Assembly (NCBI RefSeq): GCF_003334305.1 | Contig: NZ_QOWS01000014.1 | Reading direction: 5' to 3' (one strand) | From: Escherichia coli | Lineage (GTDB): Bacteria; Pseudomonadota; Gammaproteobacteria; Enterobacterales; Enterobacteriaceae | Length of the DNA stretch: 64,000 nucleotides | Shown here: positions 60,792-61,445 of the stretch, in pieces | Layout of the letters: each line of letters starts with the position of its first letter | Numbering within the stretch: the first letter of the stretch is position 1 | Translations under genes and position numbers: made by a program | Notes under the pieces: generated by a model | Told to the model about the DNA's origin: nothing | Databases searched by the model: none | Seen by the model: only the letters and a program-made list of their open reading frames with translations

Positions 60792-61445
60792 ATGGATATC
60801 ATTTCTGTCGCCTTAAAGCGTCATTCCACTAAGGCATTTGATGCCAGTAAAAAACTTACCCCGGAACAGGCCGAGCAGATCAAAACTCTCCTGCAATACA
60901 GCCCATCCAGCACCAACTCCTAGCCGTGGCATTTTATTGTTGCCAGCACGGAAGAAGGTAAAGCGCGTGTTGCCAAATCCGCTGCCGGTAATTATGTGTT
61001 CAACGAACGTAAAATACTTGATGCCTCGCACGTCGTGGTGTTCTGTGCAAAAACCGCGATGGACGATGCCTGGCTGAAGCTGGTTGTTGACCAGGAAGAT
61101 GCTGATGGCCGCTTTGCCACGCCGGAAGCGAAAGCCGCGAACGATAAAGGTCGCAAGTTCTTCGCTGATATGCACCGTAAAGATCTGCATGATGATGCAG
61201 AGTGGATGGCAAAACAGGTTTATCTCAACGTCGGTAACTTCCTGCTCGGCGTGGCGGCGCTGGGTCTGGACGCGGTACCCATCGAAGGTTTTGACGCCGC
61301 CATCCTCGATGCAGAATTTGGTCTGAAAGAGAAAGGCTACACCAGTCTGGTGGTTGTTCCGGTAGGTCATCACAGCGTTGAAGATTTTAACGCTACGCTG
61401 CCGAAATCACGTCTGCCGCAAAACATCACCTTAACCGAAGTGTAA
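60792..61445 (+). pseudogene. nfsB: Oxygen-insensitive NAD(P)H nitroreductase NfsB interrupted by an in-frame amber codon at position 44 (Gln44 to TAG)
   Basis: The frame from ATG 60792 encodes [12 protein letters not shown]…[11 protein letters not shown], then TAG at 60921-60923, then continues in the same frame ([16 protein letters not shown]… to the normal C-terminus …QNITLTEV at 61445). Total length equals the 217-codon intact gene. Confidence 0.85.

What the first reader, a model, noticed from the sequence alone, without database searches (positions are those of the whole stretch)
60921..60923. In-frame amber codon at Gln44 of nfsB (nitroreductase B), a likely loss-of-function allele
The nfsB frame is otherwise full length and collinear with the intact gene, but codon 44 is TAG where the flanking protein context (…SPSSTNS-x-PWHFIVAS…) and my recollection of the wild-type protein indicate Gln (CAG), a single C-to-T transition. 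Loss of NfsB is a classic route to nitrofuran (nitrofurantoin, nitrofurazone) resistance and alters activation of nitroaromatic prodrugs. An amber at a Gln codon would be phenotypically suppressed in supE (glnV) amber-suppressor backgrounds, so the phenotype depends on the host.
Basis: partly seen in the sequence, partly recalled or inferred. Interest (0 to 1): 0.6.

Follow-up and report, generated by a model that had tools for sequence, protein, structure and literature searches.

The report
Amber stop inactivating nitroreductase gene nfsB
A single C-to-T change puts a stop codon at position 44 of the E. coli nitroreductase gene nfsB; it is real and, with a second mutation in nfsA of the same strain, gives the ordinary, well-known two-hit genotype of nitrofuran antibiotic resistance.

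Summary
TAG at window 60921-60923 is codon 44 of nfsB (ATG 60792, stop 61443-61445). The gene is otherwise full length and one nucleotide (C130T, CAG>TAG, Gln44>amber) from a common intact allele.

Among 5,397 complete E. coli genomes only strain A7 (orangutan faeces, USA; NZ_CP028767.1) has it, and RefSeq already marks nfsB there as a pseudogene, 'internal stop'. The window matches that strain. Two other public assemblies of the same clone also carry the TAG, so an assembly error in one record is unlikely.

The same amber sits on at least eight different nfsB allele backgrounds elsewhere, so it has arisen repeatedly.

- nfsA of A7 is full length but has a substitution found in no other complete genome, G154R. 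This glycine is invariant in solved homologues, and G154E is a published resistance-associated change.
- ribE is wild type.
- All eight tRNA genes that could become amber suppressors by one anticodon change are wild type.

Best reading: a true loss-of-function allele, one of the two hits of a classical nfsA/nfsB nitrofuran-resistance genotype (their order is not known). No MIC is available. This is already known biology, of low interest.

The parts
60792..61445 (+). nfsB (oxygen-insensitive NAD(P)H nitroreductase B), a pseudogene through one internal stop; otherwise full length and collinear with the intact gene
   Evidence: Translation. With Gln restored at codon 44 it scores 383 bits against the NCBIfam equivalog NF008275 (cut-off 227), covering 1-217 of 217. 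It matches PDB 1DS7 at E=1.9e-142, with only M75I and V93A different. RefSeq annotates it 'nfsB ... internal stop'.
60921..60923 (+). Amber codon TAG replacing CAG (Gln44); C>T at gene nucleotide 130
   Evidence: Unique among complete E. coli genomes. Present in public assemblies on at least 8 other allele backgrounds.
60792..60920 (+). The 43 sense codons that can still be translated (predicted truncated peptide)
   Evidence: This exact 43-residue product is called as a gene in many public assemblies.
60996..61445 (+). Residual in-frame ORF from the first start codon after the stop (GTG, codon 69), 149 residues; would lack residues 1-68 of NfsB
   Evidence: It matches only positions 70-217 of the 217-position NfsB model.
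61447..61447 (+). Second SNP private to this lineage (T>G), 2 nt after the nfsB stop codon; non-coding, no known effect
   Evidence: It differs from both H15 and A28.
60330..60698 (+). ybdF, the upstream neighbour (synteny context)
   Evidence: Annotation of the matching record; ORF list.
61553..62800 (+). ybdG, the downstream neighbour (synteny context), intact
   Evidence: Annotation of the matching record; ORF list.

Best explanation
This is a genuine spontaneous GC>AT transition (CAG>TAG) that ends translation of nfsB after 43 of 217 residues and so abolishes NfsB. NfsB is the minor of the two oxygen-insensitive nitroreductases that turn nitrofuran prodrugs into toxic products. In this strain (E. 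coli A7 or the same clone) it sits alongside a rare NfsA substitution, G154R, at an invariant glycine. Together they form the classical two-hit nfsA/nfsB genotype that lowers nitrofuran activation and raises nitrofuran MIC.

Shown: the mutation; its presence in several assemblies of this clone; its recurrence on other backgrounds; the nfsA change; the absence of amber-suppressor tRNAs.

Inferred: loss of NfsB activity; loss or reduction of NfsA activity by G154R; selection by a nitrofuran; the resistance phenotype.
For: - The mutation and its wild-type state.
- RefSeq flags the gene as a pseudogene with an internal stop.
- The TAG is in the window, in NZ_CP028767.1, in GCA_002476345.1 (L032, 6,132/6,132 bp identical to the window) and in the assembly of read set SRR1815431 (L035, 5,412/5,412 bp identical).
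- SRR1815431 also carries nfsA G154R on a contig 100% identical to A7 (L013).
- All ten public loci fetched through the 43-residue product read TCC TAG CCG. Their nfsB alleles differ from the window at 0-15 sites, on both sides of codon 44, so the mutation has arisen independently many times.
- Only 13 GC>AT transitions in nfsB create a stop, so recurrence at one site is what selection for loss of function would produce.
- nfsA G154R: one nucleotide (G460A) from a widespread allele, unique among 5,217 records of complete genomes, at a Gly invariant in five solved homologues. The same exact protein is found on at least two backgrounds in public assemblies.
- Literature: G154E is a known resistance-associated change. 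Double mutants with two known alterations had MIC >=256 mg/L, and nfsA is usually hit first (PMC8767348). nfsA/nfsB mutations are the major nitrofuran resistance mechanism (PMC8266087).
- No suppressor: all eight candidate tRNA genes have wild-type anticodons.
- Rough chance estimate (inference): about 12 of about 229 CDS in six A7 stretches carry accession numbers that look lineage-private. That is about 5% per gene, so two named genes both being hit is about 0.3%.
Against: - No MIC or enzyme assay exists for this strain in anything I could find.
- G154R itself has not been functionally tested, and I found no paper that names it.
- nfsA and nfsB are non-essential, and missense variation in them is common: 54% of UK genomes were 'single mutants' by sequence. 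Some co-occurrence by drift is therefore possible.
- The host is a faecal commensal of an orangutan with no recorded nitrofuran exposure.
- The three assemblies that carry the TAG may not rest on independent read sets.
Confidence: 0.8

Rival explanations
1. Neutral decay. The amber is real and inactivating, but it arose and persisted by drift in a non-essential gene, without nitrofuran selection. The nfsA G154R change is then an unrelated, perhaps harmless, polymorphism.
For: nfsA and nfsB are non-essential and highly variable in natural E. coli. The lineage has other private changes nearby: ybdK H>Y, entF G>R. The source is a commensal from an animal.
Against: Both nitroreductase genes carry changes seen in no other complete genome. 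One is a nonsense mutation; the other lies at an invariant glycine that is a known resistance site. Q44* recurs on at least 8 backgrounds, which drift alone does not predict for a single site. The rough chance of both genes being hit is about 0.3% (see best explanation).
Confidence: 0.14
2. Sequencing or assembly artefact: the true base is C and nfsB is intact.
For: The RefSeq A7 record has a patch of clustered short indels 18-24 kb away (fepB, entE and entH are called frameshifted) that are absent from the window. The sister record A28 has similar patches. So this project's assemblies are locally imperfect.
Against: Those errors are indels confined to patches, while this is a clean substitution. 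The TAG is in the window (which lacks the indel patch), in the RefSeq record, in GCA_002476345.1 and in an assembly made directly from SRR1815431 reads. The same change is seen in many unrelated assemblies.
Confidence: 0.02
3. Functional despite the stop: the amber is read through (a natural suppressor tRNA, weak termination at UAG-C) or translation restarts, so enough NfsB is made.
For: CAG>TAG is exactly the class of allele that supE would restore to Gln. The base after the stop is C, which by my recollection is a weaker termination context.
Against: All eight chromosomal tRNA genes that are one anticodon change from CUA are wild type. prfA is annotated intact. The only in-frame restart gives a fragment that lacks residues 1-68. 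Basal read-through is, by general knowledge, a per cent or less.
Confidence: 0.03

Closest known systems
Loss-of-function nfsB alleles (nonsense, frameshift, IS insertion, deletion) in nitrofurantoin-resistant E. coli, e.g. Wan et al. 2021 (PMC8767348)
   Same: A premature stop in nfsB, paired with an nfsA lesion and a wild-type ribE. Such double mutants are highly resistant when both lesions are known resistance alterations. Another complete genome (ST540) has nfsB split by IS1.
   Different: Codon 44 is not named in any paper I could search or in the stored part of that paper's tables. The host is an orangutan commensal, not a urinary isolate. No MIC is known.
NfsA G154E / G154W (resistance-associated or observed variants at the same residue)
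   Same: Same residue, an invariant glycine in the LFG(L/M)xxG motif.
   Different: Here the substitution is Arg (GGG>AGG). I found no functional test and no mention in the literature.
supE (glnV44)-suppressible amber alleles of laboratory genetics
   Same: A CAG>TAG change at a Gln codon, which a Gln-inserting amber suppressor would restore exactly.
   Different: This genome has no such suppressor: glnV and glnX have anticodon CTG, and the other candidate tRNAs are wild type.

Membership tests
E. coli NfsB (NCBIfam NF008275, oxygen-insensitive NAD(P)H nitroreductase) | Full-length match to the equivalog model above its curated cut-off | tested here: met
   383.4 bits against a cut-off of 227, positions 1-217 of 217, with Gln restored at codon 44. 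E=1.9e-142 to PDB 1DS7.
E. coli NfsB (NCBIfam NF008275, oxygen-insensitive NAD(P)H nitroreductase) | Conserved chromosomal position, ybdF-nfsB-ybdG | tested here: met
   Annotation of the matching records A7 and H15.
E. coli NfsB (NCBIfam NF008275, oxygen-insensitive NAD(P)H nitroreductase) | Uninterrupted reading frame (a functional gene rather than a pseudogene) | tested here: not met
   TAG at codon 44. PGAP: pseudogene, internal stop.
Two-hit nfsA/nfsB nitrofuran-resistance genotype | Inactivating lesion in nfsB | tested here: met
   Nonsense at codon 44 of 217. This is met at sequence level only; activity was not measured.
Two-hit nfsA/nfsB nitrofuran-resistance genotype | Inactivating or activity-reducing lesion in nfsA | tested here: inconclusive
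   G154R is found in no other complete genome, lies at an invariant Gly, and G154E at that residue is resistance-associated. The effect of Arg has not been tested.
Two-hit nfsA/nfsB nitrofuran-resistance genotype | Raised nitrofuran MIC | not testable with these tools
   No phenotype data found for strain A7.
Two-hit nfsA/nfsB nitrofuran-resistance genotype | Alternative determinant: ribE in-frame deletion | tested here: not met
   ribH/ribE of A7 is WP_001021161.1, the RibE protein of the susceptible strain ATCC25922 according to PMC8767348. This feature is not required for membership. oqxAB was not searched for.
Suppressed amber allele (supE-type host) | Amber codon at a position where the suppressor inserts an acceptable residue | tested here: met
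   TAG replaces CAG (Gln).
Suppressed amber allele (supE-type host) | A tRNA with anticodon CUA in the genome | tested here: not met
   glnV/glnX ctg; tyrT/tyrV gta; serU cga; tyrU gta, trpT cca, leuX caa. Plasmid or prophage tRNAs were not scanned.

The most novel reading that the evidence does not exclude
The most novel reading not excluded: the amber is not a dead end but a conditional allele. An unscanned suppressor tRNA (on a plasmid or prophage), or unusually high UAG read-through in this strain, would restore some NfsB. The strain could then tune nitrofuran activation, and natural amber suppression would be at work in a wild commensal. A more modest reading is that Gln44 CAG is a recurrent nonsense hotspot that could serve as a marker for predicting nitrofuran resistance from genome sequence.
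Probability: 0.02. Interest if true: 0.5.

Novelty: already known. Interest (0 to 1): 0.13.

Why it matters
The value is practical only. It marks this strain as a probable nitrofuran-resistant, or at least reduced-susceptibility, double mutant (nfsB Q44* plus nfsA G154R) from a non-human primate. It also shows that the Q44 amber recurs across unrelated E. coli backgrounds, which is useful for predicting nitrofurantoin resistance from genome sequence and for anyone using this strain with nitroaromatic prodrugs. It opens no new biology: nonsense mutations in nfsB are a textbook route, and the public annotation already flags this gene as a pseudogene.

Tried and rejected
- Literature on this allele. 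Searches for 'nfsB' with 'Q44' (with and without 'nitrofurantoin') returned only an irrelevant paper (a cysN Q440* hit). 'G154R' returned nothing. A 2024 review names neither residue.
- Strain provenance. Searches for CP028767, SRR1815431, NWPZ, GCA_002476345 and AOY58 gave nothing relevant. I wondered, from memory of the ECOR host list, whether A7 is ECOR-07, an orangutan isolate from the USA. I could not test this: Mazel et al. 2000 is not held and the other ECOR papers gave no data. It stays an unverified lead.
- Window versus RefSeq record. A plain reverse-complement comparison failed because of indels in the RefSeq record. Alignment resolved this.
- Mutagenesis or mutator signature. The six lineage-private SNPs in about 34 kb include four GC>AT transitions; one is synonymous, three change the protein (two missense and the nfsB nonsense) and two are intergenic. 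That is too few to argue for mutagenesis, so I dropped the idea.
- Promoter and terminator scan around nfsB. It found nothing informative: no promoter-like site, and one antisense terminator-like site at chance level.
- The 149-residue C-terminal fragment as a look-up key. It is not specific to Q44*, because any upstream disruption or noisy assembly yields it; it is listed in 462 blocks. I used the 43-residue N-terminal product instead.
- tRNA genes in the window: none.

Full report
**1. The observation**

The window reads AAC TCC TAG CCG TGG, with TAG at 60921-60923. Translating from the ATG at 60792 gives 43 sense codons, the stop, then an uninterrupted frame to the normal stop at 61443-61445: 217 codons in all. 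With Gln restored at codon 44 the protein matches the NCBIfam equivalog for NfsB over its whole length (383 bits, cut-off 227). It also matches the solved E. coli NfsB (PDB 1DS7, E=1.9e-142), which has Gln at position 44 and differs otherwise only by M75I and V93A. Against strain H15 the 654-bp gene differs at one nucleotide, C130T, CAG>TAG.

**2. Where the window comes from, and how rare the allele is**

Of 5,426 complete E. coli genomes, 5,397 hold the gene region. Only NZ_CP028767.1, strain A7 (orangutan faeces, USA), matches the gene at 100%. Only this record holds the exact 61-mer around the TAG; the other 5,410 matching records fall in the 95-99% identity band, and those listed have one mismatch.

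The window is the reverse complement of A7 1,388,917-1,452,916 except for 18 differences. Seventeen of them are short indels or substitutions within window 37255-42796. In that patch the RefSeq record departs from all its relatives, and fepB, entE and entH are called frameshifted. The window is indel-free against strain H15, with 11 SNPs in 64 kb, matches other strains at about 100% there, and has full-length ORFs. A28, a record from the same project, shows similar patches of clustered frameshifts. I take the patch to be a local assembly artefact of the RefSeq record, and the window to be a cleaner assembly of the same clone.

**3. Is the base call real?**

I cannot see reads, but the TAG is present in four sequences:
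- the window;
- the RefSeq record;
- GCA_002476345.1 (L032, 6,132 of 6,132 bp identical to the window);
- an assembly made directly from read set SRR1815431 (L035, 5,412 of 5,412 bp identical).

The known errors in this project's records are patchy indels, not substitutions. I put an artefact at about 2%.

**4. Recurrence**

The exact 43-residue product is called as a gene in many public assemblies; the index lists it in 138 blocks. All ten loci fetched read TCC TAG CCG. Their nfsB alleles differ from the window at 0 to 15 sites, on both sides of codon 44, giving at least eight distinct backgrounds. The flanking 6 kb is 97-100% identical to the window. Independent origin is much more parsimonious than transfer of a tract a few dozen bases long. 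nfsB has 60 single-nucleotide routes to a stop at 50 codons, and only 13 of them are GC>AT transitions; Q44 is one. Repeated hits at this site are what selection for loss of function would give.

**5.

*nfsA.* In A7 it is full length (240 codons). It differs from a widespread allele by one nucleotide, G460A, GGG>AGG, G154R. The 61-mer around that codon is found exactly in 1 of 5,217 matching records. Gly154 is invariant in five solved homologues, from E. coli NfsA down to Bacillus NfrA1, in the motif LFG(L/M)xxG. Wan et al. 2021 (PMC8767348) list G154E as a known resistance-associated change; an isolate with G154E and wild-type nfsB had MIC 64 mg/L. They also observed G154W. The exact G154R protein occurs on at least 24 public contigs. 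SRR1815431 is among them (100% identical to A7 over 4.7 kb), and so is a second background that differs by about 26 SNPs. So one clone carries both lesions.

*ribE.* ribH/ribE of A7 is WP_001021161.1. That paper gives this accession as the RibE of the susceptible strain ATCC25922.

*Suppressors.* An amber suppressor needs anticodon CUA. The E. coli tRNA genes one change away from it are glnV, glnX, tyrT, tyrV, tyrU, serU, trpT and leuX. In A7 all eight have wild-type anticodons, and prfA is annotated intact. Plasmid or prophage tRNAs were not scanned. These remote-locus checks rest on the RefSeq record of A7, which I take to be the same strain as the window (section 2).

**6. Mechanism**

NfsA (major) and NfsB (minor) are the oxygen-insensitive nitroreductases that reduce nitrofuran prodrugs to toxic intermediates. 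Mutations in them are the main route to nitrofuran resistance (PMC8266087). Resistance is stepwise, usually with nfsA first, and double mutants carrying two known alterations had MIC >=256 mg/L (PMC8767348).

Here termination after residue 43 leaves no nitroreductase domain. The only in-frame restart (GTG, 60996) would give residues 69-217 only. From my memory of the NfsB structures, the N-terminal segment contributes FMN-binding residues (Arg10, Ser12, Lys14) and part of the dimer interface; this was not tested here.

- Shown: the truncation, the nfsA change, the absence of suppressors.
- Inferred: loss of NfsB activity, impairment of NfsA by G154R, raised MIC, and past nitrofuran exposure.

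An nfsB lesion alone would not be expected to give resistance: an isolate with NfsB Y183fs and wild-type nfsA had MIC 32 mg/L, susceptible.

A rough argument against coincidence: about 12 of about 229 CDS in six stretches of A7 carry accession numbers that look lineage-private. That is about 5% per gene, so two named genes both being hit is about 0.3%. The figure would be lower still given that one hit is a nonsense mutation and the other lies at a known resistance residue. This is an inference from accession numbering, not a formal test.

**7. Rivals**

| Rival | My estimate | Main reason |
|---|---|---|
| Neutral decay without drug selection | about 0.14 | Cannot be excluded without phenotype or exposure history |
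| Assembly error | about 0.02 | See section 3 |
| Functional through read-through, suppression or restart | about 0.03 | See sections 5 and 6 |

**8. Comparison with what is known, and novelty**

This is an ordinary member of a well-described class: loss-of-function nfsB alleles in nfsA/nfsB double mutants. The public annotation already flags the gene as a pseudogene. The particular codon (Q44*) and the NfsA G154R substitution are not named in any paper I could search. Both are nevertheless present in many public assemblies. I rate novelty as 'already known' and interest as low.

**9. Verdict**

The useful additions are:
- the identity of the strain;
- corroboration of the TAG in several assemblies;
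- the companion nfsA G154R lesion;
- a wild-type ribE;
- the absence of amber-suppressor tRNAs;
- the recurrence of Q44* across unrelated E. coli backgrounds.

Noticed in passing
window 37255-42796 (entH, entE, entC, fepB): The RefSeq record of strain A7 (NZ_CP028767.1) differs from the window here by 17 short indels or substitutions, and PGAP calls fepB, entE and entH 'frameshifted'. The window has full-length ORFs and has no indels against strain H15. This looks like a local assembly artefact in the public record, not real loss of enterobactin genes. A28, a record from the same project, has a similar patch over cit/ahpC/ybdN.
   Followed up: yes
A7 record NZ_CP028767.1 1675209-1675931 (L002:20209-20931), outside the window: nfsA carries G154R (GGG>AGG), unique among complete E. 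coli genomes and at a glycine invariant in solved homologues. The same exact protein occurs on at least two backgrounds in public assemblies.
   Followed up: yes
window 57635-58103 and 58138-58607: A direct repeat of about 470 bp at about 95% identity, holding two hokE type I toxin copies (both annotated hokE in the RefSeq record). The one remaining window-versus-RefSeq difference (CT/TC at 57689) lies in the first copy.
   Followed up: no
window 42333, 49320, 52268, 59100, 61447: Other SNPs private to this lineage relative to both H15 and A28: the fepB-entC intergenic region (42333), entF synonymous (49320), entF Gly>Arg (52268), ybdK His>Tyr (59100), and 2 nt after the nfsB stop (61447). Four of the six private changes, counting the amber, are GC>AT transitions. 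That is too few to infer a mutational signature.
   Followed up: partly
window 25830-27395 (-), ahpF; 27566-28129 (-), ahpC: ahpF, reported as a third nitrofuran-activating reductase that is oxygen-sensitive (PMC8266087), lies in the window. It appears intact and has the same protein accession as in strain H15 (WP_000887629.1).
   Followed up: partly
NZ_CP007390.1 (strain ST540), nfsB locus: Another complete genome has nfsB split by an IS1A element, a different route to the same loss of function.
   Followed up: no
A7 record 583255-605100 (L044:23255-45100), outside the window: Next to leuX there is an island with a frameshifted integrase, a type I restriction-modification system, McrBC, a phosphorothioated-DNA-binding restriction endonuclease, a HerA-like helicase and a Ser/Thr kinase. 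It looks like a defence island at a classical tRNA integration site.
   Followed up: no
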